From positions 1 to 64,000 of the IMG/VR virus record IMGVR_UViG_3300025853_000044: a stretch of DNA of 64,000 bases, one strand, 5' to 3'. The notes below the pieces were generated by a model. The model was not told the origin of the DNA. It made no database searches and saw only the letters and a program-made list of their open reading frames with translations. The DNA is from a virus. Each line of letters starts with the position of its first letter. Positions within the stretch are counted from its first letter, which is position 1. Both the position numbers and the translations under genes were made by a program. Below, one piece after another: positions 1 through 45,938 of this stretch.

Positions 1-142
1 AGTTTGATTGCAACATGGCATCGCCTCGTGTACCTAAACCCGATTCTTCTCTTACTGGATTTGCATTTCTCGCAAATTCTCTTTCCATGGGAGACAATTG
101 AATCTGCTTTAGCAAAGCCCAAGCATCGTCAAAGAAAGGCAT
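1..142 (-). CDS. Partial CDS running off the window; N-terminus MPFFDDAWALLKQIQLSPMEREF; probable late or virion-internal protein
   Basis: Hand translation: ATG at 142-140, 4 nt after the stop of the upstream gene, GAGG upstream, open toward position 1. Not in the ORF track. Confidence 0.7.
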   Translation of the reverse strand, partial: MPFFDDAWALLKQIQLSPMEREFARNANPVREESGLGTRGDAMLQSN

Positions 143-146
143 GTAA

Positions 147-1382
147 TCATCCTCTTTGTGCGGCACTATAGTCGGTCATTGGCATGTTGGGGCCACGGAA
201 TCCGGGTCGCTTAAATCGTGGCTTTCGGGCCGGGTCGCCTCGCTTGCGAGAGCGCATTGGGCCACGGGACATGGCTTCTGTGCCGCCCATCGGTGGGTCA
301 TCCTCTTGTCGCATTGGAGGAGGGGTTGAGGGTGGTTTTGCAGTGAATGGGTTGAATGGTTCTTGTTCACGCTGGCGTTGACGAATTGGCTCAAGTACAT
401 CATCAGCCATCGGCATAGGTAGGCTTGCACCCATCGGCCCATCTTCTCCGAATGGCTCTAAGCCGTGGATAGGCGATTCACGAGGAATTGAAATGTTGGC
501 ATAACTGGCCTCTTCACTGGTTTGTGGAACACGAGGATTGCCTCTTAAACCACGCCGTGCAAATGCCTCGTTGCTGGTTCGCTCACCGATTGAGCGACTT
601 TTTTCATCTGCTCTTCGTTGCCTGCGTCCCGCACTTTCCATTCCCGATGAGGCTGAAATAAGGGCATTTTGGATTGGAAGGGTAAAGTTTTGATTGATGT
701 GGTCGCTATATGCCCTACCTTCGGGATTAAACTCATTGTCAATTTTGTCTTGAGGAATACCCGCTTGTGATAATTGATGGCGATGTATTTGCTCCACCAT
801 TTCTGCCGCCTTTTCTCTATCAACGCCAAACATGTCTTGTACGGCATCAATGCTGTTAAGGTACCAATCAGCCTCGCCCTTGAGAATTGTCCAAGCAAAC
901 TCAAACGGGCTGGATTTTAGTTTGAAGGGGTTGGTAGGGTCATCGGGGAATTGCCGTAATTGTTCATAGGGGAGTGGGCCTTGAAGCGTGCTACCTCGCA
1001 TTCGTTGTGCTTCTGCGAATGAGAGAGGTGCAGGCATTTCATGTGCTTGTGGAAGACCTCTTCTTTGTGCATCACTCACCATATGCCCAATTTGTATTTC
1101 CGGTGGAACCGTTTTGTCTCGGTATCGGGTATCTTGATACATGTGTTGAGGTGCAGAATTTCTTGACATTTTTTCATTAATTACCATGTTCGGAGTCATG
1201 TTTTCTTCTGCGATTTCATCTGCTCTCTTGTCTCGGTTTCCTCGGTGCATATTGTGGAATTTTTCTGCGGCACTGGGTTTAACCCTCAATTTTCCCCCAG
1301 TTCCCCTCATTGTAGGGTCTGCAATTTCACTTACAAGGTTTTTCAAAATTTCAAGAGACTCCTCAAACGAGCGTCCTGCCAT
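147..1382 (-). CDS. Hypothetical low-complexity protein (about 411 aa, Pro/Arg/Met-rich), probable late or internal virion protein
   Basis: ORF 147..1454; ATG at 1382 is preferred because a TTTTTATAT box lies about 25 nt upstream. Contains SFEESLEILK and SPFEFAWTILK motifs. Confidence 0.7.
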   Translation of the reverse strand: MAGRSFEESLEILKNLVSEIADPTMRGTGGKLRVKPSAAEKFHNMHRGNRDKRADEIAEENMTPNMVINEKMSRNSAPQHMYQDTRYRDKTVPPEIQIGHMVSDAQRRGLPQAHEMPAPLSFAEAQRMRGSTLQGPLPYEQLRQFPDDPTNPFKLKSSPFEFAWTILKGEADWYLNSIDAVQDMFGVDREKAAEMVEQIHRHQLSQAGIPQDKIDNEFNPEGRAYSDHINQNFTLPIQNALISASSGMESAGRRQRRADEKSRSIGERTSNEAFARRGLRGNPRVPQTSEEASYANISIPRESPIHGLEPFGEDGPMGASLPMPMADDVLEPIRQRQREQEPFNPFTAKPPSTPPPMRQEDDPPMGGTEAMSRGPMRSRKRGDPARKPRFKRPGFRGPNMPMTDYSAAQRG

Positions 1383-1426
1383 AGCACGCACAGGGGGTTT
1401 TGATATAAAAAATCCATTCTGTAATT

Positions 1427-1830
1427 TTTTTTTGGGAACGCTATGCGTGCCCAAAAGAAGTGCTATGGGATAGCACTGTGCTATGGCTCCTTCTAAGGGG
1501 GTGCTATGGGGCTGTGCTATGGGGTGGGTGGGCCGCAGTGCCCCGTTCTATAGACCGCTGTACTGCGTCAGGCTATGGCCCCCAGTCCCTCCCGTCGTGG
1601 GCGGGGGCGTGTCTATAGACAGGGGCGCAGGGGCGGGGTCTATAGAATCCCCACCCCTCTCGCCCGCCTATGTGTGAGCGTGTCTATAGATTCCAGACCC
1701 TTCGCCCCATGCCCCATAACCTAACACGCCCACAGGACGCAAGCCCCCATGAATAGCGACACCTTGACCCCAACCCATATGGGTGCGTTATGCACCTCCC
1801 TCACGGTGCTTTGCGCTATGTGCTATGTAC
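1427..1830. repeat. Non-coding short-repeat cluster: TCTATAGA x4, GCTATG x8, inverted repeat AGTGCTAT-GGG-ATAGCACT
   Basis: TCTATAGA at 1547, 1612, 1639, 1683; GCTATG at about 1440, 1462, 1480, 1503, 1516, 1572, 1815, 1822; perfect IR at 1459-1477. Confidence 0.75.
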
Positions 1831-1870
1831 GCACGGGGGAAGCAAAATCGGGGTACTGAAGGTCAGTAGG

Positions 1871-1888
1871 TTATAAATCGGCAAAGAA
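1871..1888 (+). promoter_or_regulatory. Early promoter motif copy 1 (TTATAAATCGGCAAAGAA)
   Basis: TATA box plus the conserved CRGCAAAGAA tail shared with 8 other sites. Confidence 0.8.
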
Positions 1889-1904
1889 TGAAGGGTTGAT
1901 TCAC

Positions 1905-2798
1905 ATGGTACAAAACACCTACACCGAACCGTTGCCCGCCGTCAGCCTACCCCTCCCTGCCTTCGCTGTGCAGGTGGCCCCAGTGGTGGGGCGCATCGTG
2001 GCCTTCCTTGGCTCTCGTGCCAAGGTGTGCTCCCTGCCCCTGTCCACTACCTCCACGGTGTCGCCCCTTGAGTTGGCCCCTGCCGACAAGCAGGGCAACC
2101 GTGCCCACTCCACCTTCACGAAGGCCCAAGTCGTGGCCATCGCTCGTGAGGTCGTGGCCATCATGTCCGAGCGTCCATCTCCTGCCGATGTCCGTGGTCG
2201 TGTGCCCTCGTACTGGCTCGGCCCCAAGGCTCGCAACAGCGACTTGGCCAAGGCCCTCACCCTCACCTACACCCCGTCCAAGGGCAACAACGCTGATGTT
2301 GAGTTGAACGCCGCTGGCCACTGTGTCGCCGCCTTCCGCCGTGATGTCAAGCGGCTCAACAAGGCCAACAAACTCGCCTCCACCCTCAAGAGCGGTGATG
2401 GCTGGTTCGCTGTCGGTGTCCTTGACAACAAGGGCCAACCCCGTGCCTACACCTCCGAGAAGAAGGCTCGCAAAGCCTTCTGCCGCCTCAAGTACACGGT
2501 GTACGCCGCTGACGGCAAGACCGTGCTTGAGACTTGGTACGACACCGACAAGGCCAACCGCCTCGCCTCCGCTGAGGTGTACCAACAGGCCGACTCGGTG
2601 GGCAAGGCTGACCAAGGCCGTGTCTCTCGGTTCGCCGCCGCCACCCTTGACGACCTCAGCCCCTCCGCTGTCCGTGCCCTCGCAAAGAAGGCCGGTGCCC
2701 CAAAGCGTGTTCACACTGGCTCCGGTTCCACGGCCCGCTCCCGACAGTGGTTCAGCGACGACATCACACGCCTTGAGGGTGTCATGACCCCGCAGTGA
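1905..2798 (+). CDS. Hypothetical basic Ala/Lys-rich protein (about 297 aa), possibly DNA-binding
   Basis: Strong C-ending codon bias, own promoter and downstream terminator. C-terminal TLDDLSPSAVRALAKKAG loosely resembles SAP/Rho-N helical motifs. Confidence 0.75.
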   Translation: MVQNTYTEPLPAVSLPLPAFAVQVAPVVGRIVAFLGSRAKVCSLPLSTTSTVSPLELAPADKQGNRAHSTFTKAQVVAIAREVVAIMSERPSPADVRGRVPSYWLGPKARNSDLAKALTLTYTPSKGNNADVELNAAGHCVAAFRRDVKRLNKANKLASTLKSGDGWFAVGVLDNKGQPRAYTSEKKARKAFCRLKYTVYAADGKTVLETWYDTDKANRLASAEVYQQADSVGKADQGRVSRFAAATLDDLSPSAVRALAKKAGAPKRVHTGSGSTARSRQWFSDDITRLEGVMTPQ

Positions 2799-2842
2799 GC
2801 CGTTCACCGGCCCGCTTCCTCCTGCTCTCTGAGTAGTACACC

Positions 2843-2913
2843 GCTCACCCATGCCCCACGGGGCGTGGGTGGGCCTCGCCCACCTGCCCCACTGGGGGCG
2901 GGTGGGCTTTTTT
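2843..2913 (+). terminator. Tandem GC-rich hairpins followed by T6
   Basis: Stem 2843-2857/2860-2874 and stem 2878-2890/2895-2907 (only G-U deviations), then TTTTTT at 2908-2913. Confidence 0.75.
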
Positions 2914-3180
2914 CATGTCACGCAACCCCATAGCGCAAGGCTTTGGGGGTGCTGTTGCCACGCCTACGCCTGAACATAAGGTTCAGCCTTGCGTGTGAAA
3001 GCAACGCACCCATATGGGTTGGACTCTTCACGCATCGTGTTCGTGTAGCGCAACGGCCAAAGAAAAAGTCTGGGTTCCGAGGCACGCACGCTCGCAAATC
3101 ATACGCTTATGACCATTCCTCGCCCACTTCTATAGAAAGAGACATCTCTTCGGGTGGGGGCATGACAGCCTCAACAATAC

Positions 3181-3490
3181 GAACATGTTCGCCCGTACAT
3201 GTTCGCCCTAACATGTTCGGTGTCGCTTACCTCACCCCTTGACTCATCCTAAACGCTACACTGCAAGCCTGTTTATTCACTTACCTCAAAAACCACTTCA
3301 CTCATTTGAGGTAAGCACCACTTCACTCATACCCCCTACACTCAATAGGAAGAGAAGCCGCCACGCTTACTTCACTTATTCACTATGCTTGTTACATATA
3401 TACTATTGAGAGTAAGACCTATGAGTAAAGTGAGTATTCGTAGGGGGGTCAAAACAGGTGAGTAAAGAAATGAGTAAAGTGAGGTAAGTG
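3181..3490. repeat. Iteron-like repeat cluster, candidate replication origin
   Basis: ACATGTTCG x3 with a 14-nt period (3183, 3197, 3211); CTTACCTCA/CTTCACTCA-type repeats at 3224-3384, mirrored by TGAGTAAAG/TGAGGTAAG at 3407-3490 around an AT-rich core (about 3389-3407). Confidence 0.65.
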
Positions 3491-3544
3491 GGGTACATGA
3501 CACAGCCTGTAAGCGTGAACCAAAACGATGGACTGAAAGCCAAC

Positions 3545-3565
3545 AGTATTTAAATCGGCAAAGAA
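3545..3565 (+). promoter_or_regulatory. Early promoter motif copy 2 (AGTATTTAAATCGGCAAAGAA)
   Basis: Starts 31 nt before ATG 3576. Confidence 0.85.
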
Positions 3566-3575
3566 TAGAGAGCCG

Positions 3576-5034
3576 ATGTCAAACACAACGAATCCCATCC
3601 AAGCCGTACCACCATACCCCGAACAGGGTGCCTTCACCGCACAGTACAAGCGGTATGGGTGGGAAGCCAGTGTCCACTTCGTACTGGACAAGAGCAACAA
3701 CTACCGAGCGTATGTCTCCGACTACGCTGTGAGTGGGACACCTACCCTGCAAGACATCTCTCGCATCAGCACCAAAGTCCACGCCGACTTCAACAAGTGG
3801 GTGTCGCAGACTCGCCTCATCAACTGGGCCACTCGCAATGGGATGCACTTCACTCGCTGGCGACAGCAAGCAGACAACACCTTGGAGGTGATTGCATGAT
3901 TGGGCCACAAGCATACGAGAACCTGTTCCAAACCTCGGTGGACTACAGCACCAAGGCTGTTCGCATCAAGCACGACGGCAAGCGATTCATCTACTACATC
4001 CAAACAAGCGATTGGGAGTTGTTCAATTCCTACGATGAGTTCATCACATGGTGCGAGGTTGACATCCGAGACAACAACGGCGGCTACGCTGACACCGTGG
4101 AGGTGATTGCATGAACGACCACACCGATTGTGAAGACTGTGCCTACGAAGGTGAGTACGAAGTGGATGCTGAATACATCTGCGCTGATTGCGAGAGCGAC
4201 ATCTGCTTTGACCACATGAAGGTGTGGCCCCAACCGAAGTGGGAGAAGACCAAACCAATTCACTACTGCAAACAATGTTTCCAACACCGATGGGAGGCGA
4301 TGGTATGAGCATGGAGACAGCCGCCATCATCAGCGAAGTGTTTGCTACACACCCCGACCTCAAGGACAGCGACCCCTTGTTGGACAATGCTTACGCCGAC
4401 TTGCACACACTCGCCGTGTACCATTTGCTTGATGAGTTGATGCCCGACAAGAAGGAGAAACAACGGCTGGTCGCACAGTGGATGCTCACCATCTCAAAGA
4501 GCGAAGCCGCACGACGCACACAGGAGGAATGAACATGAACACACAACAAGCACAGAAATTGATGGGCCGATACCAACTGACACACAAGGTGCCCTTTACT
4601 CAACCAGCGTATGTCATTGCCTACGCCATTGGCAAGAAAGGCATGGCCTACCTACCTGCACTCACATGGGTGAAGAAGTTCTACAAAGACGGCGGCTTCA
4701 CCTACTACACTGGCACATGGAAAGATACCATGAGCGTCATCAACATGTACATGGAGGCGAGCGAATGAGCGAGAAACAAATCATCGGAAAAGAAAGCAGG
4801 TTCACGCACTACCCTGACACACTCATCAGTGCATTGGGTAAGGACAGAAACAGCATGGTAGACTCCTTCGTGGATGAGGCTGTGCGTTTCTACATCATCA
4901 TGAATGTCTATCCATCCTTCCCCGTTGAGGAAGCGATGGAGTTAGCCATGCGTCCCAAGAACTACTGGATAGAAGTTCGTGAGGAAGTAGGCACAGAAGG
5001 ATACCTCGTGTCCATCACGGAGGTGAGTGAGTGA
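3576..5034 (+). CDS. Chain of six small coupled hypothetical genes: 3576-3899, 3896-4114, 4111-4308 (Cys-rich, Zn-finger-like), 4305-4532, 4529-4768, 4765-5034
   Basis: Each overlaps the next by ATGA/GTGA with a GGAGG/GAGGTG SD inside the upstream gene. Confidence 0.75.
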
Positions 5035-5405
5035 ACACTTACCAAGACTGGATGGCGTTCCTTGCCAAAGCAAAAGACCCAAGCAAAGGGCGGCCTGTTG
5101 CCAAGGCAACACGCATCAAGTTTCACATACATGGGAAGAATAGCGGCAGACTTCCAAGTGTGCTTCTCACATACCACGATAGTATCATTGCTGAGTGGAC
5201 ACCAACCAAAATGTACTTCACCAATGGTGGGTATATGACGCGGACCACAAAGAAAAGACTCAACGACTACCTCCCATCCGACTACTACATCCAACAGAAG
5301 AAAGGCGTGTGGTACCTACGGAACCATGCGAACACCATGATTAGGAAATTGAAGAACACATTCACAATCAAGTTCACCCACGAAGGAGAACGAATCAAGG
5401 ACTGA
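5031..5405 (+). CDS. Phage-type hypothetical protein (basic, GGYMTRTTKKRLN motif)
   Basis: Coupled GTG start with GGAGGTGA SD; ends just before promoter copy 3. Confidence 0.7.
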   Translation: MNTYQDWMAFLAKAKDPSKGRPVAKATRIKFHIHGKNSGRLPSVLLTYHDSIIAEWTPTKMYFTNGGYMTRTTKKRLNDYLPSDYYIQQKKGVWYLRNHANTMIRKLKNTFTIKFTHEGERIKD

Positions 5406-5413
5406 GGCTGAAC

Positions 5414-5434
5414 AGTATATAAATCGGCAAAGAA
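5414..5434 (+). promoter_or_regulatory. Early promoter motif copy 3 (AGTATATAAATCGGCAAAGAA)
   Basis: Intergenic, upstream of the dikinase-like gene. Confidence 0.85.
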
Positions 5435-5442
5435 ATGAGGAA

Positions 5443-7746: not shown

Positions 7747-7747
7747 T

Positions 7748-8965: not shown

Positions 8966-9198
8966 CAATGAACGACCACCAAGACAGCGAGCACTTTGCT
9001 TACGACAAGACATGGGAAGAGATTGAAGCCATGCTGGACAGGGCGGAGCGCAAACAGAATCAACACTACACAGCCATGCTGGACGGGCCGAAGAAGAAAC
9101 GCATGTACCACATGAGGAACTACAAAGCATTGGAGGGCGTGGTCAAGGCTCTTCGTTGGGTGCTTGGAGATAAGGACATTGACCATCCATTGGAGTGA
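8962..9198 (+). CDS. Small helical hypothetical protein (78 aa)
   Basis: Coupled on both sides; GAGGTGA SD. Confidence 0.75.
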   Translation: MTMNDHQDSEHFAYDKTWEEIEAMLDRAERKQNQHYTAMLDGPKKKRMYHMRNYKALEGVVKALRWVLGDKDIDHPLE

Positions 9199-11911: not shown

Positions 11912-11923
11912 TTTCAATTGAAC

Positions 11924-11944: not shown

Positions 11945-11959
11945 AGAGAGGATGATAAC

Positions 11960-12810: not shown

Positions 12811-14368
12811 ATGATTTATTCTGTAAAGCAGACGCAACTTGACCGAATGGTGGAGGACATCAAAGCGTTAGGGCTGGACAAAGTACCCGTTTACCACTAC
12901 AGCACAGACTTCACGAAGGGGCACACTCTAACCGTCTATGATGACAACCGTGGCGAAGATGTAGCGATTGGAACCATCAAAGACTTTTGGCTTCCCGAAT
13001 TGTTTTCTTCAGCACCCGAACTTGCTTTGGAAGTCCAGTGGTTGCGTAAAGAGTTGAGCAAGTACAAAAGCATAGATTGGCAGAAACAAATTGAACTGGG
13101 GAGTGATGAAGAATGATTGACACAGACAAATACGAAGGACACACAGAAGGACTGTGGGAATACGACAGTGCTACTATTCATGCTACTGCTAAAGGTGGTA
13201 ATGAAATCATAGCAGAATATCCTTGTTGGAATTACAACAAAGACCAACTGATAACCAAAGAGGAAGAGGCTAACCTACGACTCATGGCAGACGCACCACT
13301 TCTCTTAGCAGAAGTCCAGCGGTTGCGTGAAGCACTCATCAATGTTCAACGCTCACTCATATGGGATGAGAAAGATAGGGCGATGGATGGCGACCCCATT
13401 ACACTTGAAGCACTTGTCGCTCAAGTTGAGCAAGTGCGAAGCGACATAACGGAGATGATTGAATGATTGACACAGACAAATACGAAGAGACAGACCACCC
13501 CGAACTTATAGAGTTTGAAGGTGAAACATTAGGAGATACGCTAACAAACCTGCTCACAGAAGTCAAGCGGTTGCGTGGGAGACTACGAGATGCTGAGGAC
13601 TTGTTAGAGAACTGTGGCTACTGTCGTGAATGCTTTTGGGATAAAGAAAGTATCAGCGATGTTGCGGTGCAATTAACAGAACCTGTTTGGCCTAATGATT
13701 GCACACCGTTATGCGAGTCATGTATGGAAGACTTCAAGGAGATGTTTGAATGACGGAAGAAGAACTGGAAGAATGGAAGAATGAAAGCATTGACACAGAC
13801 GAATACGAAGGACACTCAACCGAATACACTTATGAGATATTGGATGTGGATGATGGAAAAGAACTGTTTGCTACTTATGCACTACTGAATGACGCACCAC
13901 TTCTCCTCGCAGAAGTCAAGCGGTTGCGTCGTGTCATTGAGGACATTGAATCAATGATACCCGACAACCACGAAGAGGTAAGTCCTATCTTGAGCGACAT
14001 CCTTAGCGAATGCCACAGGATGCTACCCATGTTCAACGAGGTGAGCGAATGATTGACACAGACAAATACGAAGGGCACATTGAGAACATTGGGCGTTGGC
14101 AAATGTTCGCAAACACTCTCCCCCGATGGGCGGAAGATGCAGACAGGAAACTCGTAGCAGACGCACCACTTCTCCTTGAAGAAGTCAAGCAGTTGCGTGA
14201 AGCGATTGCTGATATTGCTAACAACATGGAGGCGGCAGACCCGTCATACTTGCAGGGATTTATTAGAGATTTACTTGAGGTGATTGAATGATTGACACCA
14301 ACGCACACAACCTCAAAATCAAAATTGAAACAGACGAGTACATTTACTGGGAATACTTGGAGGCATGA
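12811..14368 (+). repeat. Tandem array of paralogous small genes (12811-13116, 13113-13466, 13463-13753, 13750-14052, 14049-14291, 14288-14368) sharing blocks MIDTDKYEG and DAPLLLAEV[KQ]RLR
   Basis: Block A GAATGATTGACACAGACAAATACGAAG is exact at 13111, 13461 and 14047, variant at about 13789 and 14286. Block B (GACGCACCACTTCTC...)GAAGTC[AC]AGCGGTTGCGT at about 13030, 13290, 13557, 13891, 14160. Confidence 0.9.
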
Positions 14369-18531: not shown

Positions 18532-19182
18532 ATGTCACCTTTTGAACAAGCGTTTGACTACCTGCGGCAGAACAGGCCGCAGGGACGCTTCATGGGTGGC
18601 AGTACAGGGGCACGAGGCTACGACCTACCGATGGGACGATTCGTTGGTAAGCGTGGCGACAGCCCACAACACATTCAAAATGAATACGACATGAACAGGT
18701 ACCTCAACGAACTGGGTGTACCCGTACCACAAGCACAGATGCAAGACGGACTCATGCTGACACAAATGGAGGAGGGACAACGATTGGGCTTCAATCCATC
18801 AGCAAGAGATGTTCGCCAGTTGCGTAGGGACTTCGTTCCCCACGCCACGATTGCGAACTGGGACATGCTCGGCTTAGACCGAGACAATGTTATTCGCCGT
18901 CCCGATGGAACGCTCTCCTATGTTGATGTAGGAGGCGCAGGGGCGTTCCGTGCCCAAGGCGCACCGAAGGGTGGGGCATTCGGCTCCACGGTTGGCGAAC
19001 TTGACACGCTACGAGATAAGAATCCCGAACTGGCAGGTATCAGCGAGGCTGACCTTGGCCGTTCTTACGACGCATACGGAGGCGAGGATGCCATGACCCA
19101 AGCACTTGATGTGCTGAGGCAACCCGACACCCGCCGTATCATGCAACAACGCGTACAGGATGTTGCACGACGAGTTGCTTGA
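18532..19182 (+). CDS. Atypical kinase (HipA / PI3-PI4-kinase-like fold)
   Basis: GGSTGA Gly-loop, FVGK Lys, NE alphaC Glu, NWDMLG..DN catalytic loop, YVDVG (DFG equivalent). Confidence 0.7.
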   Translation: MSPFEQAFDYLRQNRPQGRFMGGSTGARGYDLPMGRFVGKRGDSPQHIQNEYDMNRYLNELGVPVPQAQMQDGLMLTQMEEGQRLGFNPSARDVRQLRRDFVPHATIANWDMLGLDRDNVIRRPDGTLSYVDVGGAGAFRAQGAPKGGAFGSTVGELDTLRDKNPELAGISEADLGRSYDAYGGEDAMTQALDVLRQPDTRRIMQQRVQDVARRVA

Positions 19183-34963: not shown

Positions 34964-34964
34964 T

Positions 34965-37994: not shown

Positions 37995-38207
37995 ATGAGG
38001 AATAAATGGGTTATCAAGAGATTAACTAAAATGCTCTACGAAACAAATGGTGCTGTTTCAATTGAAACACTGTACGATGGGTGTCTCAGTTTGAAACAAT
38101 CACCAACAAGACAGCACATAGGCACAATCCTCTCATCCATGAAGAATGTAGAGTTTGTAGAAGAAGGTGTATGGAGGTTAAAGGATGAAACCCCAACTGA
38201 TAATTGA
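37995..38207 (+). CDS. Small possible winged-helix protein
   Basis: PTRQHIGTILSS...GVWRL pattern. Confidence 0.45.
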   Translation: MRNKWVIKRLTKMLYETNGAVSIETLYDGCLSLKQSPTRQHIGTILSSMKNVEFVEEGVWRLKDETPTDN

Positions 38208-38883: not shown

Positions 38884-38903
38884 GTATATAAATCGGCAAA
38901 GAA
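38883..38903 (+). promoter_or_regulatory. Promoter motif copy 9 (AGTATATAAATCGGCAAAGAA)
   Basis: Starts 28 nt before ATG 38911. Confidence 0.85.
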
Positions 38904-38910
38904 AGAGGGG

Positions 38911-40317
38911 ATGAAGAACATGTTACTCAAAGAATACCGTGCCGTTGAACGATTCCCCATTTTGAAGGCTTACCTTCATCACTTTTCACAGACCTCAATG
39001 AAGAATGAGATGCCGGGTTTGCTGTCATTCTTTTTCATTCAAGGACAAACTACACTACCATACCTCCGGTTACCTACTGGTGATACTCACCTTGACTTGC
39101 GAGTGCATGTCTTTTGGATTCAACCGTCCCGTACAGGGAAATCAATCGCTTGGAACTTTATCAGTGACATTATGGAGCAGGCTGAGATTCCCTTTGAGTT
39201 GTTTGCATCGGGTACTGATGCAGGTTTGATTGGCTCAACCAACGCTATTCTTGATGACAAAGGAAAACCTACTGGTGATGTAGAAACTGTAGAGGGTCTT
39301 CTTGCGGGGCGTAAGGGTATCAATTTTGACGAAGGTTCCATCCTTCTTACACCCAACAAGCACAGCCAAGAGACAGTATTGTACCTACAGACGGCGTGCA
39401 ACCCTGTGGGTAGCGGCAACAACACACTCGTGAAGCACATGAAGGGAAACAAAATTGAGTGTCCCTCAATGGTGTCGTTGTGGATTACCACTTACCCACC
39501 AAAGGGTGTCAAAGATTATGTTCTCACGAAGGGTATCTTTCAGCGTGTGCTGTTGTACTATCGCCACTGGGACATGGATGAGCGACAGGAGGTAAGCAAT
39601 CGCCGTCTTGGTACATTCTTTGGCCGACCGCCCAAGAATGAAATCACCAAGGATGATTTGTATGCGTACTTCAAGGATACAGACAAGCGTATTCGTGACC
39701 GCCTACTTGACATGGGTGAACTCACCTTCACACAGTGGTCGGAGATGAGCGGTGATGACAAAGAGATAGTTGTACAGGAGCACATGTGGGAGATGTTTAC
39801 CCCATCCGACGATTATCAAACGGCTTTGTATCAAGCGTCCGATGAGTTGTACGACCTGTTGCGAAACATGAGTCCATCCATGTCCGAGATTGTGGCATCG
39901 TTTACTCCCGCCATTGAGAACTACTTGGGTATCTTCTCAGTACACATGGCTATCCTTGATGAGAAGTGGGAGGTCACTGCGGAGCATGTGGACTTGGCTC
40001 ACGAGATTTTGATTGACTTATTCCAAAACCTCATCGCATGGCTTGAGGATTCAGTTGAGGTTGGTGGCAACAAGCAGAAAGAGTCTAAGGCTCATGAGGG
40101 TATGATTGCCGCTTACAATGAATGTCAAGCCTACGAGATTGATGGGCATGGCGACGGGTGGCGATTACGCTCCATGTTCTTCAACATCTACATGGAGAAA
40201 GCCAAGGTGTCCAAGAGCACCGCCGAAAGACACTTCAAGGATTACGGTGGCTCCCTGTTTAAGAGCAAGAAGAGCGGTGGGCGTGTGTTCATTCGCAAGG
40301 TAGGCGATGCACAATGA
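38911..40317 (+). CDS. Divergent MCM-like AAA+ ATPase (putative replicative helicase)
   Basis: HVFWIQPSRTGKS, TDAGLIGS, NFDEG, IFQRV arginine finger, wHTH-like C-terminus. Confidence 0.55.
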   Translation: MKNMLLKEYRAVERFPILKAYLHHFSQTSMKNEMPGLLSFFFIQGQTTLPYLRLPTGDTHLDLRVHVFWIQPSRTGKSIAWNFISDIMEQAEIPFELFASGTDAGLIGSTNAILDDKGKPTGDVETVEGLLAGRKGINFDEGSILLTPNKHSQETVLYLQTACNPVGSGNNTLVKHMKGNKIECPSMVSLWITTYPPKGVKDYVLTKGIFQRVLLYYRHWDMDERQEVSNRRLGTFFGRPPKNEITKDDLYAYFKDTDKRIRDRLLDMGELTFTQWSEMSGDDKEIVVQEHMWEMFTPSDDYQTALYQASDELYDLLRNMSPSMSEIVASFTPAIENYLGIFSVHMAILDEKWEVTAEHVDLAHEILIDLFQNLIAWLEDSVEVGGNKQKESKAHEGMIAAYNECQAYEIDGHGDGWRLRSMFFNIYMEKAKVSKSTAERHFKDYGGSLFKSKKSGGRVFIRKVGDAQ

Positions 40318-40916
40318 GCGACATACTGGCACTGGATATTGAAACTGCGAACTTTTCTCATGAAATAGGTGGGTGGCACAACACTCACTTGTTTGAGCCA
40401 TCGGTGGTCGCTACATGGGACGGGCACGATGGAACGATTTACTGCAACGAGGGATTGGATGTGGACAACAAGGTGAAAGCCTTGCACCCACGCACCCTCG
40501 GTGACGATTTAGCCAACCATGTGGAGAAGGGTGGTAAAATCCTTGGACACAACATAAAGGCATTTGACTTACCAGTGCTGAGGGATGCACTGGATTGCTG
40601 GACAGCCAGCGACTTGATGAAGTCGGATGCTGTCGTTGATACTCGCAACTTGGTACGCAGTGCCGCATTAAGTGTTGGGAGGGTGGATACATCGCTTGGT
40701 ATGCTTACCAAGCACACCTTCAACACCAATAAGTTGATGAACAGTGCGGATGCACCCGTGGCTTGGAGAGAAGGCCGGTATGATGAGGTGGCGAAGTATT
40801 GCTTAAGCGATGCTCAACTTACCTACGACTTGTATCAGTTTGGAAAAGCCGAGGGACATGTCCTCTCAAGGAGCCTTGAGTCGGGAGAAGTTGTAGAAAT
40901 AGAAGTGGAATGGTGA
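40314..40916 (+). CDS. DEDD 3'-5' exonuclease (RNase H-like)
   Basis: LDIET, GHNIKAFD, YCLSD. Confidence 0.85.
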   Translation: MSDILALDIETANFSHEIGGWHNTHLFEPSVVATWDGHDGTIYCNEGLDVDNKVKALHPRTLGDDLANHVEKGGKILGHNIKAFDLPVLRDALDCWTASDLMKSDAVVDTRNLVRSAALSVGRVDTSLGMLTKHTFNTNKLMNSADAPVAWREGRYDEVAKYCLSDAQLTYDLYQFGKAEGHVLSRSLESGEVVEIEVEW

Positions 40917-40921
40917 AGAAC

Positions 40922-42427
40922 ATGACAGAAAAAGATAGCGCAAAAGGCGGAAAAGCACAGATACACAACATTCGGGCGGCGAAGACGGTTGCAGAAACCG
41001 TCAAGACAACGCTTGGCCCGATGGGTATGGACAAAATGATGGTTGATGGTGGCGGTAATGTCATCGTCACGAATGACGGAGCAACAATCCTGCGAGAGTT
41101 GGATGTCTCCCACCCCGGTGGGAAGATGATTGCAGAAGTCGCTCGTACCCAAGAGTCGCTGTGTTACGATGGAACAACAAGTACGGTCGTCCTTTCGGGA
41201 CAACTGCTCGGCAACAGCGAGATGCTGTTTGAGAAGGGGTTGCACCCCAATGTGATTTGCCGTGGTTATCACGAAGCCGCTCAAATGGCGGTGAAGTATC
41301 TCGTTAATGAGGTAGCCCAAGACAGCGATGACCGTGACAGGCTCGTGCATGTAGCCAAGACCGCCATCACTGGTAAGACCCTTGAAACGGCTCTTGATGC
41401 CGTGGCGGAACTGTGCGTGAGCGCAGTGGAGAAGGCTGGCGATGCTGAAAGTGTCAAGGTTGTTTCGTTCCCCGGTGGCTCACTTGAGGACTCATACCTG
41501 TACAACGGTGTGATTGTCAACAAGGACTTCGTGCTTGAAGGTGACAACGATTACCAAAGCATGTTGCTCATCAACACGGGTCTTGAGACTGAGAAGGCTG
41601 AGGACAATGTGCAGGTGCAACTTGATGCTAAGTCGTATCAGTCCTTCAAGGGTGCAAGTAAAGCCGACTTGGTGGCCAGTGCAAAGCACATCGTAGATGC
41701 CATGCCCAAGGGCGGTGTCGTGTTCGTGCGTGATGGTGTGAGCGACATGGTGTGTTCGTACCTCAAGAAGAACGGTATCATGGTCGTGCGTCGTATGCCT
41801 GAATCATCCATGCGTGCCTTGGGTCGCATGTCCGGTCTTGACATCGTGCAGGTGCCCGAAGAGATTGAAGGTGCCGCCGATGTTTCAATTACTCGTGAAA
41901 GAAAAAATGATATTTGGTATTTATTTGTTGGTAGCGAACAAGAGAATGAAGAGGCCACGCTGGTCTTGCACGGTGCTACCTCGCACACGCTGGAAGAAGT
42001 TGAGCGTGGGTTTGATGACGCACTGGGTGTTGTCTCGCTGGTCATGAAGAGTGGGCAGTTCGTCGTTGGTGGAGGCAACGCCTATGTGCGTATGGCCACG
42101 CACCTGCGCCAACATGCCGCCTCAGTGGGTGGACGGGCACAGATGGCCATTGAGTCGTTTGCTGATGCCTTGGAGGTCATTCCTGCCACCATCGCTGAGA
42201 ATGCTGGTCATGACCCACTGGACACGATTCTCGCTATGCGCCACGAAATCCTACAGGGTAGGGTGTCGGTTGGCCCGGATGTCACCGAAGGTGGTGTGCG
42301 GGACTTGCTGGCTGATGGTGTGATTGAACCTGTAGCATTGGTGCGTCAAGCCGTGCTGAGTGCTGGTGAGGTCACTAACGCTATTCTACGCATTGATGAC
42401 ATCGTGGCTCGTCGCCCTACGCAGTGA
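40922..42427 (+). CDS. ths: Group II chaperonin (thermosome subunit)
   Basis: KTTLGPMGMDKM, TNDGATIL, DGTTS, GLHP, GGG, AENAG.D, GVIEP, ILRIDD. Confidence 0.95.
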   Translation: MTEKDSAKGGKAQIHNIRAAKTVAETVKTTLGPMGMDKMMVDGGGNVIVTNDGATILRELDVSHPGGKMIAEVARTQESLCYDGTTSTVVLSGQLLGNSEMLFEKGLHPNVICRGYHEAAQMAVKYLVNEVAQDSDDRDRLVHVAKTAITGKTLETALDAVAELCVSAVEKAGDAESVKVVSFPGGSLEDSYLYNGVIVNKDFVLEGDNDYQSMLLINTGLETEKAEDNVQVQLDAKSYQSFKGASKADLVASAKHIVDAMPKGGVVFVRDGVSDMVCSYLKKNGIMVVRRMPESSMRALGRMSGLDIVQVPEEIEGAADVSITRERKNDIWYLFVGSEQENEEATLVLHGATSHTLEEVERGFDDALGVVSLVMKSGQFVVGGGNAYVRMATHLRQHAASVGGRAQMAIESFADALEVIPATIAENAGHDPLDTILAMRHEILQGRVSVGPDVTEGGVRDLLADGVIEPVALVRQAVLSAGEVTNAILRIDDIVARRPTQ

Positions 42428-42431
42428 TACC

Positions 42432-42656
42432 ATGGGAAAACTGATGGACAAGTTGAGGCAGAAGTGCCCTGTGTGCAAAGCGTATGAGATACCTCGCCGC
42501 CTTCGTGGTCGCTTCATTGACTACGGTAGTGAGCGTGTGTATCTCTTGCACTGTCGCAAGTGTGGCTTCTTTTGGCTTGACCCATCAGTGAAGAAACTCA
42601 AGCCGTATCGTTTGAAGGGTATTTATTTGCACCCGTCAATGGACGAAGAGGAGTAA
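42432..42656 (+). CDS. Small Zn-ribbon protein
   Basis: CPVC...CRKC; ATG at 42432. Confidence 0.65.
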   Translation: MGKLMDKLRQKCPVCKAYEIPRRLRGRFIDYGSERVYLLHCRKCGFFWLDPSVKKLKPYRLKGIYLHPSMDEEE

Positions 42657-43847
42657 TCACTGCAACCGCACAAAAGTCGGGTCGGTGGCGTGGCTCACCG
42701 TACATACAAAGCGTGCATACCCACCGTCAGCGTCAGCGGTATCACCAATGGCTGATGTGGTAGAGTTGGTCAGTGCGAAGGTGCCGGTATTTGAACCATG
42801 AGTGTTTTTTATCTCAATGATGTAACCAGCAGGGAATGGGCCACTTGTAGTAACTGCAAACGACCCACCGGGTGTTAGCACGAGGATGTTTGCATCAGCC
42901 GAGGTGATGTCAATGCTCGTGGCTGTGCTGGTCAACACACGGTCAAACACGGAACGGGTAAAGCGGGCGGCGTGGGTGCCGCTGTAGTACAGTACATCTT
43001 TCGCACTATCGCCAGCAGTTGTGCTTCCAATTTGAGAGCCGAATGATTGCCACAACGCACCAAAGCGGCTTGCGGTGAAATTACCTGTATCTTGGTTGTA
43101 AGCATCAAGTTCAGTGTGTATGTCCACAGGGGTTGTAGCACCTACGGCCCCACTGGTCACTGGTGAAAGGTACATTGGGGTAGGGCGCACAAACACTCGC
43201 TTGTCATTGCTTTCACTGATGGACAACTTAAGGTCGCCACCCGATGCAGAATAAACAACACGAAGAACTGCAAGCACAACACTTTGCTTTACATCAAGAC
43301 TTGCTAAAGGAGTGCTAAGAAATGCCGAAGGTGTAGTGGGATAGGTGTTAGATGATGTAGCCACAGGTGTGCCCAATTCCCATGTGATGCACTCTTCCGC
43401 AGTGTTGGTGCTTACATACACGACAATCAAGGCTTCCTGTCCACTGGTCAGTGCACTGTAATTTGAAGTGCTGGTATGGCTCCCTTGACGAGCATGATGG
43501 CTACTTGTTTGCAACTCCACATCTTGGGAAGAACCCGGCCCACCTGCAAACTTGTACAACACTCCATCAAGCACTGCGTGACCACCCGCTACCCGCACAG
43601 TGTATGTGTTCGTGACTTGTTCACAAACACCCGGTAGGTCTTCGGGATTATCACGAATGCTTGCCGTACCTGCTGTGTCTTCTTCAAGGATGATACCGTT
43701 CCCATGCACACCCTCAAGCATGTTTGTGAGGGAGGGGCTGGTGATATGTTCACCGTCTTCTAAACTGTCTGTAAAGACCCCGCTACCAGTCATTGCTGAT
43801 GCGTGGTTTGCCGCTGTATGTCCCGATAATGGATTGCCTGTCATCAT
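42657..43847 (-). CDS. Putative virion structural (tail) protein
   Basis: Ser/Thr/Gly-rich beta composition; last gene of the leftward operon. Confidence 0.6.
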   Translation of the reverse strand: MMTGNPLSGHTAANHASAMTGSGVFTDSLEDGEHITSPSLTNMLEGVHGNGIILEEDTAGTASIRDNPEDLPGVCEQVTNTYTVRVAGGHAVLDGVLYKFAGGPGSSQDVELQTSSHHARQGSHTSTSNYSALTSGQEALIVVYVSTNTAEECITWELGTPVATSSNTYPTTPSAFLSTPLASLDVKQSVVLAVLRVVYSASGGDLKLSISESNDKRVFVRPTPMYLSPVTSGAVGATTPVDIHTELDAYNQDTGNFTASRFGALWQSFGSQIGSTTAGDSAKDVLYYSGTHAARFTRSVFDRVLTSTATSIDITSADANILVLTPGGSFAVTTSGPFPAGYIIEIKNTHGSNTGTFALTNSTTSAIGDTADADGGYARFVCTVSHATDPTFVRLQ

Positions 43848-44188
43848 GCCACCTCAATTGCGATTTGGATTTTTAATTCATTTGCTGATGATTTAGTTAT
43901 AGGGGAAATTGTGTACCGAGCCACGGGCGTGAAATCGCTTGTATCACGGAACTGGATGTACACCTCCTTTATTTGGTCAGCAAATGTAGTGTCATAGGGT
44001 AGTTTGGCCTCAACGAGTAGAGAGGTGTCGTCCACGATGGTGATGGTGGGGGTAAGGGTGATAGCAGGGCGACCCGCCGAGCCATCGTCAGTGGTGGCTG
44101 GTGTGCCGTCAAAGCCCAAAATCACCTCGTTGATGTTGCTGGCGAGTGTGTCAAGCAACAACCTTCGCATGTAATCGCTAATCGGCAT
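43844..44188 (-). CDS. Putative tail/baseplate protein
   Basis: Coupled ORF; IKEV...ARY..PITKS pattern as in baseplate/tail-collar proteins. Confidence 0.5.
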   Translation of the reverse strand: MPISDYMRRLLLDTLASNINEVILGFDGTPATTDDGSAGRPAITLTPTITIVDDTSLLVEAKLPYDTTFADQIKEVYIQFRDTSDFTPVARYTISPITKSSANELKIQIAIEVA

Positions 44189-45593
44189 AGATGTTCCTCC
44201 TTTCCACTGTCTTGTTTACTCCAATAGGCAAGCCATTTCCGCCTATCAGTCCACGATTATGTGTTCCCTTCACACCACCGATAAGGTATGCTGTGTTAAA
44301 TACTCCTCTTTCCTTAACGACCGATACGATACGCAACTCCACCTTGCCAAACAAGGCCAAGTTCTGTTCCACCACCTGCACATAGGTGGCGGGGTTGCTG
44401 TCGTTTGCGCCCACGCTACTGCCCTCGGCCACGCCCTGTAGGATGCCCTCAATACCCGTATCTAAGTTCATCATTGTGAGGTCGCTCATGTTCTTCATTG
44501 GCATGTGTTTAACCTCAGTAACTACTTTGTTACCACCGTCATACTTGACAGTCATACCGGGACGCAGATTGAGTAGGTTGAGGTGGCCAGCACTGGATAT
44601 AGAGCCACGGATGAGCGAGCGTGATTTGAGTACCTGCCGTGCTACACGACGGGCGGCGTTGGTGGTGCGGGCGGTGTTGTCCACGATAGGTGCGCTGTCC
44701 TCTCGCACTTCCTCTACCTGTCCTTCTACATCGTCCACCGTGACAATCACCAAGTCATTGAGAGCCAACGGCTGGCCTTGCACAGTGACACGGTTAGCGA
44801 TGTTCTCAATCGGGTTATCGGTCTTGGCACCGAATCGCAGGTTCTTGTCCACGAACACGCTTGCCTCGCTGAATGTGATGGGAATGTACAACAGGTTGCC
44901 GAAGCGGTCAAGCAGGAGCATACGGCTGTCGTGACGGCCAAGGAAGCGCAGAGCGGTCATGAGGTTCATGTTGTTGAAGTCTTGACCCACGAAGCGTGTG
45001 CTATGCTTGCGTGCTGATGATGCGGTGACATTCTGTGGGCGTGAGATGTTCACGCTGGTTGCACCGCTGTTGATGGACTCACCAAGGCGCACAGCCAAGT
45101 CTGTGGTACGCAGGCCCACATCCACAGGCTGGCCGAGTTTGACAGTGCGACCAGTGAACCCGATACCATCCAGCGTCTTACCCTTCATGTTGCGTAGGTT
45201 TACCAACACACCAAACGATGATGATTCAACCGTGTGCGGCAACAGGCGTTGCGCTGATGCGTCAGCGTTGTAGATGAGCATGGGGCTGTTGGTGCTGGAA
45301 ATTAAATCATCAGCAAAGAAAGGGGCAGTATTGAGTGAATGACCGGGGGTATTGTTATGCGACAACTGGATGTACGATTCACCCTCAAGGATGCGGTAAT
45401 TGCGTTGCGGCATCACTTGTAAATTACGAGTGTTTTTCTTTTCTACCGTGACCTTAGCCTTGTTTGCCTTCTGCACGCTGATGCGACCGTGATGAATGGC
45501 GTTGTCCACGAACACGGGCTTACGCACATGCGTCATGACCTCATCTGCATCAGTGCTGTACCGACCAGTCCTTGTGTTCTTGAGGACGGTCAT
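44178..45593 (-). CDS. Putative tail hub-like protein
   Basis: ANRVTVQG, ARRVARQVL, LRPGMTV motifs as in phage tail hubs. Confidence 0.5.
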   Translation of the reverse strand: MTVLKNTRTGRYSTDADEVMTHVRKPVFVDNAIHHGRISVQKANKAKVTVEKKNTRNLQVMPQRNYRILEGESYIQLSHNNTPGHSLNTAPFFADDLISSTNSPMLIYNADASAQRLLPHTVESSSFGVLVNLRNMKGKTLDGIGFTGRTVKLGQPVDVGLRTTDLAVRLGESINSGATSVNISRPQNVTASSARKHSTRFVGQDFNNMNLMTALRFLGRHDSRMLLLDRFGNLLYIPITFSEASVFVDKNLRFGAKTDNPIENIANRVTVQGQPLALNDLVIVTVDDVEGQVEEVREDSAPIVDNTARTTNAARRVARQVLKSRSLIRGSISSAGHLNLLNLRPGMTVKYDGGNKVVTEVKHMPMKNMSDLTMMNLDTGIEGILQGVAEGSSVGANDSNPATYVQVVEQNLALFGKVELRIVSVVKERGVFNTAYLIGGVKGTHNRGLIGGNGLPIGVNKTVERRNIYAD

Positions 45594-45602
45594 GGCTTAA
45601 CC

Positions 45603-45938
45603 TCAGCAGTTCCATCGCTTCAAGGATGCTCCCTTTGGTGTGAGTTTACCACCTTTACTGGTCGGGCCTTTGACACCCGACATGCGAGCGCAAAACGATT
45701 TACGACGCTTTGCCTTCTTTGAGCCGGGTTTGAGTTTGCTTGGTTTGGTTGTCACGGGAGGTTTGAGGTTTGCACCACTCTTACGCTTGGCGGCGGCACG
45801 ACCTTTAGCGTTCAGTCCACCTTTCTTACTGTGCTTATTTGGGTTATAACCATGAAATGGCTTACTTTTTTTGGCCTTCATTACAGCAAAGGCTAATTCA
45901 GCAGGCGAACAACAATCACAAAAATCGTAATCCATCAC
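45603..45938 (-). CDS. Small very basic phage protein (DUF6321-like)
   Basis: GGLNAKGRA, NLKPPV, RRKSFCARMSG, SLKRWNC. Confidence 0.65.
   Translation of the reverse strand: MMDYDFCDCCSPAELAFAVMKAKKSKPFHGYNPNKHSKKGGLNAKGRAAAKRKSGANLKPPVTTKPSKLKPGSKKAKRRKSFCARMSGVKGPTSKGGKLTPKGASLKRWNC

What the first reader, a model, noticed from the sequence alone, without database searches (positions are those of the whole stretch)
1..45938. Shared short peptide tag on unrelated proteins: candidate virion-loading or maturation signal
Seen: MPFFDDAWALLKQ (N-terminus, 142-104), MAGRSFEESLEILKN (N-terminus, from 1382), internal SPFEFAWTILKG (911-876), MSPFEQAFDYLRQ (kinase N-terminus, 18532) and more weakly SPAELAFAVMKA (near N-terminus of the basic protein, about 45906). 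Consensus (S/P)-F-[DE]-x-A-[WF]-x-x-L-[KR], an amphipathic helix ahead of otherwise unrelated sequences. None of these genes follows the early promoter motif directly. Knowledge: T4 internal proteins use a short N-terminal capsid-targeting sequence removed by the prohead protease. Inference: an analogous portable tag for packaging cargo, including an enzyme; the internal copy could mark a polyprotein cleavage site.
Basis: partly seen in the sequence, partly recalled or inferred. Interest (0 to 1): 0.8.

Follow-up and report, generated by a model that had tools for sequence, protein, structure and literature searches.

The report
Shared address tag on magrovirus proteins
This ocean archaeal virus (a magrovirus) puts the same 12-residue helix ending in Leu-Leu-Lys in front of, between and behind many unrelated protein modules; the helix most likely loads them into the virus head and marks where the head protease cuts, but neither step has been measured.

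Summary
The window is part of a 95-kb magrovirus contig. A peptide with consensus M-x-P-[F/M]-[D/E]-x-A-W-x-[L/V/I]-L-K sits on otherwise unrelated proteins. Two of the five cited sites are strong (142-104 and 911-876). MAGRSFEESLEILK is a conserved degenerate variant. The site at about 45906 is a decayed copy whose orthologue has the canonical tag. The kinase N-terminus is non-canonical and doubtful.

A pattern scan of IMG/VR found 107 N-terminal copies on 92 distinct proteins, nearly all on magrovirus contigs. A stricter version of the pattern found only 2 matches, the chance level, in 596 Gb of prokaryote genomes. Synonymous codons vary freely, so selection acts on the peptide.

The tag also occurs internally and at C-termini. 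Genes fuse and split exactly at it. Its end (h-L-K|) matches conserved sites in the capsid protein (ELLK|AD) and at the edge of the S78 protease domain (RILK|ED). The haloviruses HVTV-1 and HCTV-1 have SK|A at both positions.

Best reading (about 0.5): a capsid-loading, protease-released tag like the T4 capsid targeting sequence, on a fast-changing cargo that includes an ADP-ribosyltransferase-fold family. Packaging and cleavage are untested.

No held magrovirus paper mentions the tag. This scan has already noted it on several other magrovirus genomes.

The parts
104..142 (-). Canonical tag at the N-terminus: M-PFFDDAWALLK-Q
   Evidence: Translation. GAGG-type ribosome-binding site 8 nt upstream. 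Scores 16.5 bits with the independent tag HMM against a best decoy of 4.2.
1..142 (-). Cargo ORF behind that tag, cut by the contig start
   Evidence: The ORF runs off base 1. It would be 49 aa if the contig were circular. The neighbouring 411-aa protein is also recorded on a 107,098-bp contig, so this record is probably incomplete.
147..1382 (-). 411-aa two-module protein: leader, module A, tag, module B. It is the first gene of the leftward (head-gene) strand.
   Evidence: A TATA-like TTTTTTATATC lies about 20-30 nt before the ATG, with no Shine-Dalgarno sequence. No Pfam or PHROG hit.
1338..1382 (-). Degenerate leader MAGRSFEESLEILKN, with Ser and Leu in place of Ala and Trp
   Evidence: Below the 1.5 bits of the last of the 30 top hits printed, but conserved as F-[DE]-[DE]-S-[LF]-x-[IVL]-L-K in seven of the full-length orthologues aligned.
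876..911 (-). Internal canonical tag SPFEFAWTILKG at the junction of modules A and B (residues 158-169)
   Evidence: 12.6 bits. S158, P159, F160, A163, W164, L167 and K168 are seven of only twelve invariant columns in 17 homologues of 44-82% identity. In 8 of the 17 sequences aligned the protein starts two residues before the tag.
18532..18570 (+). Tag-like but non-canonical N-terminal helix MSPFEQAFDYLRQ
   Evidence: 4.9 bits, which is noise level. Orthologues read P-h-[DE]-x-A-[FMIL]-x-Y-[LI]-[RKQ] and never have Trp. In the model it is helix 3-14 with pLDDT 94.
18532..19182 (+). 216-aa protein with a protein-kinase-like fold
   Evidence: AlphaFold2 pLDDT 83.7, pTM 0.85. All top Foldseek hits are kinases: CtkA, HipA, RIO, Bud32 (best E 1.6e-3, TM 0.55). 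No Pfam hit.
45873..45908 (-). Decayed tag SPAELAFAVMKA, behind a Cys-rich 10-residue extension
   Evidence: The orthologue in L095 starts MEPFDEAWSLLK, followed by the same AKKKSKPFHGYNP.
45603..45938 (-). 111-aa basic cargo protein with a DUF6321 domain
   Evidence: Pfam PF19846, E 2e-16, residues 36-109. In PHROGs the same domain ends larger phage proteins.
5031..5078 (+). Possible weak relative of the tag: MNTYQDWMAFLAKAKD (uncertain)
   Evidence: Resembles MDFDYVMAFLKAKRDAP of genome 88054, whose orthologues carry SFMEQAWLLLKAKKDAP. No orthologue was found in the loci held. The rest of the protein is Kyano_Gp96-like.

Best explanation
The tag is a portable docking peptide specific to magroviruses. 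It is an amphipathic helix of about ten residues, P-[F/M]-[D/E]-x-A-W-x-h-L-K, joined to its cargo by a flexible linker. It precedes protein modules, either as the N-terminus of a separate gene or, after gene fusion, as the connector inside a multi-module protein.

Inferred mechanism: the helix binds a virus-encoded part of the procapsid interior, either the scaffold-protease fusion or the inner face of the HK97-fold capsid protein. Tagged modules are thereby built into the head. The S78 prohead protease then cuts after the terminal Lys and frees the downstream module inside the capsid, for delivery with the DNA at the next infection.

Shown: the tag exists, is selected at the peptide level, is restricted to these viruses, lies on the strand of the head genes, and sits exactly at module boundaries. 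Inferred: binding, encapsidation, cleavage and injection.
For: 1. Scale and specificity. The IMG/VR scan gave 107 matches to ATG-x-P-F-[DE]-x-[AS]-W-x-x-L-K on 92 distinct proteins. A stricter form of the pattern gave 2 matches in 596 Gb of prokaryote genomes, which I estimate to be the chance level. Seven of ten contigs without obvious homology carry a magrovirus capsid gene. Four near-complete records have 6-8 strict copies each, all on one strand, with none for the control pattern.
2. Peptide-level selection. Synonymous sites vary freely among 90 distinct tag DNAs. Conservation collapses after residue 13.
3. Detached helix. In a tagged family the model gives helix 3-14, a low-confidence linker at 15-33, then the folded domain.
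4. Module boundaries. Gene fusion and fission occur exactly at the tag.
5. Protease link. [DE]xx[WF]x[LIVM]LK occurs four times in the six-frame translation of the genome: three tags, plus RILK|ED at the edge of the S78 domain. That site is nearly invariant in the orthologues aligned, and their alignment becomes variable directly after it. The capsid protein has a conserved [EL/DI]LK|AD. HVTV-1 and HCTV-1 have SK|A at both homologous positions. HK97 has Lys103 directly before Ser104, the known start of mature gp5.
6. Context and cargo. Tagged genes lie on the strand of the head genes and lack the nine-copy plus-strand promoter. Cargo proteins are small and soluble with no membrane segment. They include an ADP-ribosyltransferase-fold family, HD and GNAT enzymes. 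This recalls T4, whose packaged core contains the ADP-ribosyltransferase Alt and internal proteins that share a capsid targeting sequence (PMC9958956, PMC3012670).
Against: There is no proteomic, structural or genetic evidence for packaging or cleavage. The receptor is unknown.

In this genome the scaffold C-terminus (DMANMGWDEVHALA) does not match the tag. The protease-edge site matches only the second half of the tag and was found post hoc.

Seven of 36 tag contexts are C-terminal, where clipping would remove 0-3 residues. Cleavage therefore cannot be the whole function.

Most cargo is acidic (median pI 5.4), unlike the basic internal proteins of T4.

Temporal class is inferred from strand and promoter type only. 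Small, acidic, hypervariable gene arrays are also typical of early host-takeover genes.

The closest cultured relative, HVTV-1, has no tag.
Confidence: 0.5

Rival explanations
1. The tag is a docking motif for a hub outside the capsid. It would bring a changing set of effectors to one viral or host machine during the intracellular phase, for example the virus-encoded thermosome, a replication or assembly factory, or a host complex. No packaging would be involved.
For: The helix is detached and independent of position: N-terminal, internal or C-terminal. The cargo is small, acidic and hypervariable, and lies in arrays like typical early takeover genes. No receptor has been identified.
Against: Tagged genes share the strand of the head and tail genes and lack the plus-strand promoter used by the replication block. 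A tagged gene sits inside the head-tail module between the capsid and tail genes. The tag end matches presumed protease sites. N-terminal copies are absent from cellular genomes, so it is not a borrowed host signal.
Confidence: 0.2
2. The tag is only a processing signal. It would be an extended recognition site for the S78 protease that cuts multi-module precursors and short leaders, with no role in targeting.
For: Boundaries fall exactly after Lys. The end resembles the capsid and protease sites. Pro is absent at position 13 in all 92 proteins, although Pro makes up 7% of the residues beyond position 30.
Against: Removing a 12-residue leader that is tethered by a flexible linker has no evident purpose by itself. 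The strongest conservation (P3, F4, A7, W8) lies 5-9 residues upstream of the presumed scissile bond, more than a simple cleavage site needs. The prohead protease acts inside the procapsid, so its substrates must get there anyway. C-terminal copies would be pointless.
Confidence: 0.15
3. The conserved element is DNA rather than peptide: a recombination handle that lets gene cassettes be swapped.
For: Two near-identical 39-bp copies lie within one gene outside the window (SEPMEDAWSSLLK twice). Modules are shuffled at the tag. Another constant-block gene array exists at 12811-14368.
Against: Across 90 distinct tag DNAs every synonymous position varies: four Pro codons, three Ala codons, six Leu codons. 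The amino acids are nearly invariant. Recombination at the tag may be a side effect, but it does not explain the conservation.
Confidence: 0.04
4. The similarity is due to chance, or to a generic N-terminal helix cap.
Against: Decoys and opposite-strand frames give no hit of 8 bits or more, against 36 distinct contexts on the coding strand in 2.1 Mb. There are 107 exact matches to a pattern I put at about 36 bits.
Confidence: 0.01

Closest known systems
Capsid targeting sequence (CTS) of phage T4 internal proteins, removed by the gp21 prohead protease (PMC9958956, PMC3012670)
   Same: A peptide of about 10 residues is the only thing shared by a diverse, fast-changing set of small proteins. It ends at a protease site. 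In T4 the packaged core also contains an ADP-ribosyltransferase (Alt), and here one tagged family has that fold.
   Different: There is no sequence similarity. The protease family differs (S78 of HK97 type, Lys at P1, against T4 gp21, which from my own knowledge cuts after Glu). The host is an archaeon. The tag also works as an internal connector and a C-terminal end. Function is unproven here.
Cargo-loading peptides of encapsulins (PMC7355545)
   Same: A short terminal peptide on unrelated cargo, loaded into an HK97-fold shell; that it docks on the shell's inner face is from my own knowledge. It can be N- or C-terminal. The cargo is enzymes.
   Different: The consensus differs (encapsulins: Gly/Ser-rich and ending L-[KR], from my own knowledge). 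Encapsulin cargo is not released by a protease and is not delivered to another cell. Here the shell is a true virus capsid with scaffold and protease.
Maturation cleavage by HK97-family (S78) prohead proteases
   Same: The magrovirus protease is an S78 member. HK97 gp5 has Lys103 directly before Ser104, the known start of the mature protein. The proposed sites here all have Lys at P1.
   Different: Known S78 substrates are the capsid protein, scaffold, portal and the protease itself. A family of dozens of accessory substrates with a common extended leader has not, to my knowledge, been described for this protease family.
Head-module proteins that carry effector domains (MuF or SPP1 gp7-type polymorphic toxins; the 'zeta toxin' gp115 of HVTV-1)
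   Same: Effector enzymes are encoded in the head module and thought to be packaged and injected. HVTV-1 has such a gene annotated between the portal and protease genes.
   Different: Those effectors are fused to a large head-binding domain. Here a 12-residue tag would do the job, and it is shared by many separate genes.

Membership tests
T4-type capsid targeting sequence system | A short peptide shared by otherwise unrelated proteins | tested here: met
   92 distinct proteins share residues 1-12 only. Mean column identity is 6% overall. Information collapses after residue 13.
T4-type capsid targeting sequence system | The peptide is strictly N-terminal | tested here: not met
   Of 36 distinct contexts, 10 are N-terminal, 19 internal and 7 C-terminal.
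T4-type capsid targeting sequence system | The peptide is sufficient to load a foreign protein into the prohead | not testable with these tools
   Needs expression of a tag-reporter together with capsid protein and scaffold-protease.
T4-type capsid targeting sequence system | The peptide is removed by the prohead protease at its C-terminal end | tested here: inconclusive
   Indirect only. Module boundaries fall after Lys. The end resembles the capsid and protease-edge sites, with matching SK|A at both sites in haloviruses. There are no protein data.
T4-type capsid targeting sequence system | Homology to the T4 sequence or to its protease gp21 | tested here: not met
   The protease is Peptidase_S78, not the T4 gp21 family. 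The consensus here ends in Lys, whereas T4 sites end in Glu (from my own knowledge).
Encapsulin cargo-loading peptide | HK97-fold shell protein | tested here: met
   The capsid protein matches SU10_MCP (E 1.3e-12) and, below its curated cut-off, Phage_capsid. It is 36% identical to the HVTV-1 major capsid protein.
Encapsulin cargo-loading peptide | The encapsulin consensus peptide on the cargo | tested here: not met
   The consensus here is P-[FM]-[DE]-x-A-W-x-h-L-K. Only the terminal L-[KR] is shared.
Substrate of an HK97-family (S78) prohead protease | An S78 protease is encoded in the same genome | tested here: met
   PF04586, E 2.8e-10, residues 84-170 of the 459-aa protease-scaffold protein.
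Substrate of an HK97-family (S78) prohead protease | Cleavage demonstrated at the proposed bond | not testable with these tools
   Needs N-terminomics or a peptide cleavage assay. No published mature N-terminus for the HVTV-1 capsid protein was found in the library.
Host-type sorting signal (Sec, Tat, class III, archaeosortase) | Also used by cellular proteins | tested here: not met
   2 matches in 596 Gb of genomes from 185,579 prokaryote species, which I estimate to be the chance level. No tagged protein has a membrane-like segment.

The most novel reading that the evidence does not exclude
Magroviruses, among the most abundant archaeal viruses of the surface ocean, run a general cargo system. 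Any protein module given one 12-residue helix is loaded into the HK97-fold head and released there by the head protease. The viruses use this to carry a rapidly changing arsenal into the next host cell: ADP-ribosyltransferase-fold, HD, GNAT and zinc-ribbon proteins, and small basic proteins. New cargo arises simply by gene fusion and fission at the tag.
Probability: 0.4. Interest if true: 0.85.

Novelty: new variant of a known kind. Interest (0 to 1): 0.75.

Why it matters
The hosts, Marine Group II archaea (Poseidoniales), are uncultured. Almost nothing is known about how magroviruses take over their cells.

A single tag that labels roughly 6-10 genes per genome and over a hundred protein families across the group would give a sequence-based list of likely virion-delivered effectors. 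It would explain a large share of the 'hypothetical' genes next to the head genes.

It would also offer a minimal, testable loading signal for an HK97-fold capsid, of interest for protein-cage engineering. Finally, it would be, to my knowledge, the first example in archaeal viruses of the strategy known from T4.

Tried and rejected
- DNA-level recombination handle: rejected because synonymous sites vary freely.
- Borrowed host signal: rejected by the genome-wide scan.
- Known domain: Pfam and PHROGs give nothing for the tag, and almost nothing for the cargo.
- Scaffold-tail mimicry, a lead from earlier notes on other genomes: in this genome the scaffold C-terminus has a conserved Trp helix, but with other spacing and no HMM score.
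- Tag in cultured relatives: none above noise in 100 kb of HVTV-1. The 411-aa protein has no match in GenBank phage records.
- 'Portal with tag': a family on contigs in which no magrovirus capsid gene was found (two records tested) carries DPFD[KQ]SWDTLK about 40 residues inside its portal protein. This is compatible with the few chance families expected.
- Kinase helix as a canonical tag: not supported.
- Published mature N-terminus of the HVTV-1 capsid protein: not found.
- 'relatives' cannot be drawn for a virus record. Host genomes were therefore scanned only for the N-terminal form of the tag.


Full report
**What the window is.** The window is the first 64 kb of a single 95,367-bp virus contig. 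The contig encodes a group II chaperonin, archaeal-type replication genes on the plus strand, and a long minus-strand block holding terminase, portal, an S78 prohead protease fused to a scaffold, and an HK97-fold capsid protein. The capsid protein is 36% identical to that of the haloarchaeal siphovirus HVTV-1. Hundreds of close relatives exist in IMG/VR. The contig has no terminal repeat. One of its proteins is also recorded on a 107,098-bp contig, so the record is probably incomplete.

**Checking the observation.** All five peptides are present. The copy 'from 1382' is on the minus strand and heads the same 411-aa protein that contains the copy at 911-876. All five hits are in genuine reading frames, and four of them lie at the start of their protein.

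For a test that does not depend on this genome, I built an HMM from tagged proteins of other contigs. The scores are:
- MPFFDDAWALLK: 16.5 bits
- MKPFEESWDILK (outside the window, genome 88271): 13.9 bits
- SPFEFAWTILK: 12.6 bits
- RDAWSVLK (genome 72187): 7.7 bits
- best reversed-sequence decoy: 4.2 bits
- kinase N-terminus: 4.9 bits, which is noise level
- MAGRSFEESLEILK and SPAELAFAVMK: below the 1.5 bits of the last of the 30 top hits printed

The last two are real by orthology. The first is conserved as F-[DE]-[DE]-S-[LF]-x-[IVL]-L-K in its orthologues. The second corresponds to a canonical MEPFDEAWSLLK in the orthologue of L095, followed by the same basic sequence. Further copies lie outside the window, including SEPMEDAWSSLLK twice in a 593-aa protein (genome 94233-94271 and 93726-93764).

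**How widespread and how specific.**
- In 80 loci fetched through the terminase gene, hits of 8 bits or more occur only on the coding strand.
- An IMG/VR scan for ATG-x-P-F-[DE]-x-[AS]-W-x-x-L-K returned 91 stretches with 107 matches. These represent 92 distinct proteins that share nothing else. Most show a GGAGG- or GGTG-like ribosome-binding site upstream.
- 53 of the 80 loci hold homologues of this genome's proteins. Seven of ten others carry a magrovirus capsid gene. The remainder are one portal family and one single locus, about what I would expect by chance.
- A slightly stricter pattern found two matches in 596 Gb of genomes from 185,579 prokaryote species, which I estimate to be the chance level.
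- Four near-complete magrovirus records have 6-8 strict copies each, all on one strand, and none for the control pattern.
- HVTV-1 has none.

**Anatomy of the tag.** From the 92 proteins the consensus is M1, [N/S/R/Q]2, P3, F4, [D/E]5, x6 (often Q), A7, W8, x9, [L/V/I]10, L11, K12. Position 13 is limited to A, E, S, M, N, Q, D, G and R, with no Pro, although Pro makes up 7% of the residues beyond position 30. Pro is enriched at position 14. Conservation vanishes after that. Synonymous positions vary freely, so selection is on the peptide. In a model of one tagged family the tag is helix 3-14. It is followed by a low-confidence linker (residues 15-33) and then the folded domain.

**Position and modularity.** In 2.1 Mb of loci chosen without regard to the tag there are 36 distinct tag contexts: 10 directly behind a start codon, 19 internal and 7 within three residues of the stop. 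Fusion and fission happen exactly at the tag:
- Module B of the 411-aa protein is a stand-alone protein starting M-x-SPF[DE]xAWTILK in 8 of the 17 sequences aligned. Seven tag residues are among the only twelve invariant columns of that family.
- The module beginning MTPEEMEA follows an N-terminal tag in L126 and L140, and an internal tag in L137.
- The module beginning APRIPRKKG follows ...FRLLK in L053 and ...GGKPTIVK in L041.
- Downstream of the terminase gene, the same 45-residue head is followed by the tag and then either a stop or one of several different modules.

**Link to the head protease.** The protease is Peptidase_S78. The pattern [DE]xx[WF]x[LIVM]LK occurs four times in the six-frame translation of the genome. 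Three are tags. The fourth is NPEAQFRILK|ED, residues 161-168 of the protease, at the end of the Pfam match. It is nearly invariant in the orthologues aligned, and directly after it their alignment becomes variable. The capsid protein has a conserved [EL/DI]LK|AD[AS]P at residues 31-38, behind a variable stretch. The protease N-terminus has [T/A]LLK|SG.

In HVTV-1 and HCTV-1 the homologous positions read GMSK|AD or NVSK|AD in the capsid protein, behind an extension of about 100 residues, and VVSK|A at the protease edge. The residue before Lys therefore changes together at both sites, Leu in magroviruses and Ser in haloviruses. That is what sites read by the cognate protease would do. HK97 gp5 has Lys103 directly before Ser104, the known start of the mature protein. 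This remains indirect: the pattern was chosen after seeing the data, and the protease-edge site matches only the second half of the tag.

**Context and cargo.** The nine-copy promoter TATAAATCRGCAAAGA occurs on the plus strand only. The tagged minus-strand genes therefore belong to another transcription class. The 411-aa gene is the first gene of the leftward block, with its own TATA-like box and no Shine-Dalgarno sequence.

In relatives, tag arrays of up to five consecutive genes lie next to a gene for a helix-turn-helix protein that lies upstream of the terminase gene and may be the small terminase subunit, and next to small basic DUF6321 and DUF5872 proteins. One tagged gene sits between the capsid and tail genes.

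Cargo proteins are small (median 156 aa) and soluble, with no membrane-like segment, and are mostly acidic. Pfam recognises few of them: HD_4, GNAT, zinc ribbons and DUF6321. One family with a conserved YHGT motif folds like ADP-ribosyltransferases. Every top Foldseek hit is Tpt1/KptA, Arr, a PARP or pertussis toxin S1, with weak E-values. A sequence profile also touches Tpt1 and exotoxin A.

**The kinase.** The 216-aa protein has a protein-kinase-like fold, nearest to CtkA, HipA and RIO. Its N-terminal helix, however, lacks Trp in all orthologues, often lacks Lys, is modelled with pLDDT 94, and lies in the plus-strand block. I do not count it as a member of the system.

**Interpretation.** The best-supported reading is a capsid-loading tag released by the head protease, working like the T4 capsid targeting sequence (PMC9958956, PMC3012670). 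It differs from T4 in four ways: it is built on an S78 protease, ends in Lys, is usable at any position, and doubles as the joint of multi-module precursors. Encapsulin loading peptides (PMC7355545) are a second functional parallel.

The main rival is a docking motif for a hub outside the capsid. A processing-only role and a DNA-level role are less likely. None of the three main magrovirus papers mentions such a motif.

Earlier notes of this scan describe the same tag on other magrovirus genomes and reach similar readings. I treated them as leads. Their claim that the tag matches the scaffold tail does not hold for this genome.

Noticed in passing
window 1872, 3549, 5418, 11928, 14748, 19199, 22710, 28362, 38887 (plus strand): Nine copies of TATAAATCRGCAAAGA inside a longer conserved block, all on the plus strand and each shortly before a gene start. 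This is an archaeal TATA-type promoter class for the rightward (replication) genes. The minus strand has only one copy, with 3 mismatches, at genome 77414.
   Followed up: partly
window 1400-1860: GC-rich region between the diverging gene blocks. It holds several copies of CTATAGAC and of CCATAGCAC, followed by an A-run and TTTTTTATATC just before the ATG at 1382. Possibly the leftward promoter or regulatory region.
   Followed up: no
L041, L048, L053, L054 (downstream of the terminase gene); genome 87456-87854: A second junction motif, KKQGVGGKPT[IV]VK, ends the DUF5872 module exactly where different modules are attached. A recurrent basic block KKKKGMVVVIA[LV]GGKPPK precedes C-terminal tags.
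   Followed up: partly
genome 72694, 90907 (minus strand); L041, L052, L054: Several late proteins start M-x-K-[VI]-L-[IV]-[RK]-[KA] (MNMKVLIKA, MKKPILVRK, MTKVLIRKN). In this genome [VIL]L[VIL][KR] occurs twice in the first 12 residues of 48 minus-strand proteins, against 4 times in the remaining 18,820 residues. The numbers are too small to judge.
   Followed up: partly
L110:274-747 and relatives (alignment A3): A tagged family with conserved YHGT, GVYAT and GIREG motifs has an ADP-ribosyltransferase-like fold (Tpt1/KptA- and Arr-like). It is a candidate NAD-using effector.
   Followed up: yes
L146:637-2361 and L084, L101, L120, L132, L143: A portal protein family carries DPFD[KQ]SWDTLK about 40 residues from its N-terminus; no magrovirus capsid gene was found in the two records tested (L084, L146). 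This may be chance, or a distant use of a similar helix.
   Followed up: partly
L256:349-1026 (HK97 gp4) compared with genome 76609-76632: HK97 protease has AAMK|S at the position that aligns by eye with RILK|E of the magrovirus protease and VVSK|A of HVTV-1. A Lys at the C-terminal edge of the S78 domain may be a general self-cleavage site.
   Followed up: no
window 12811-14368: An array of small genes shares constant DNA blocks (the IDTDKYE start block, and a block encoding an LLxEVKRLR-type motif) that alternate with unrelated segments. It appears as repeat families D3, D6 and D10.
   Followed up: no
window 45935-63934 (minus strand): A single 5,999-codon ORF lies directly upstream, in transcription order, of the basic DUF6321 protein.
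   Followed up: no
L262:18622-22563 (HVTV-1 gp115): The cultured relative HVTV-1 has a 1,313-aa protein annotated 'zeta toxin' between the portal and protease genes. This is the same position as the 1,928-aa head-module protein of this genome.
   Followed up: no
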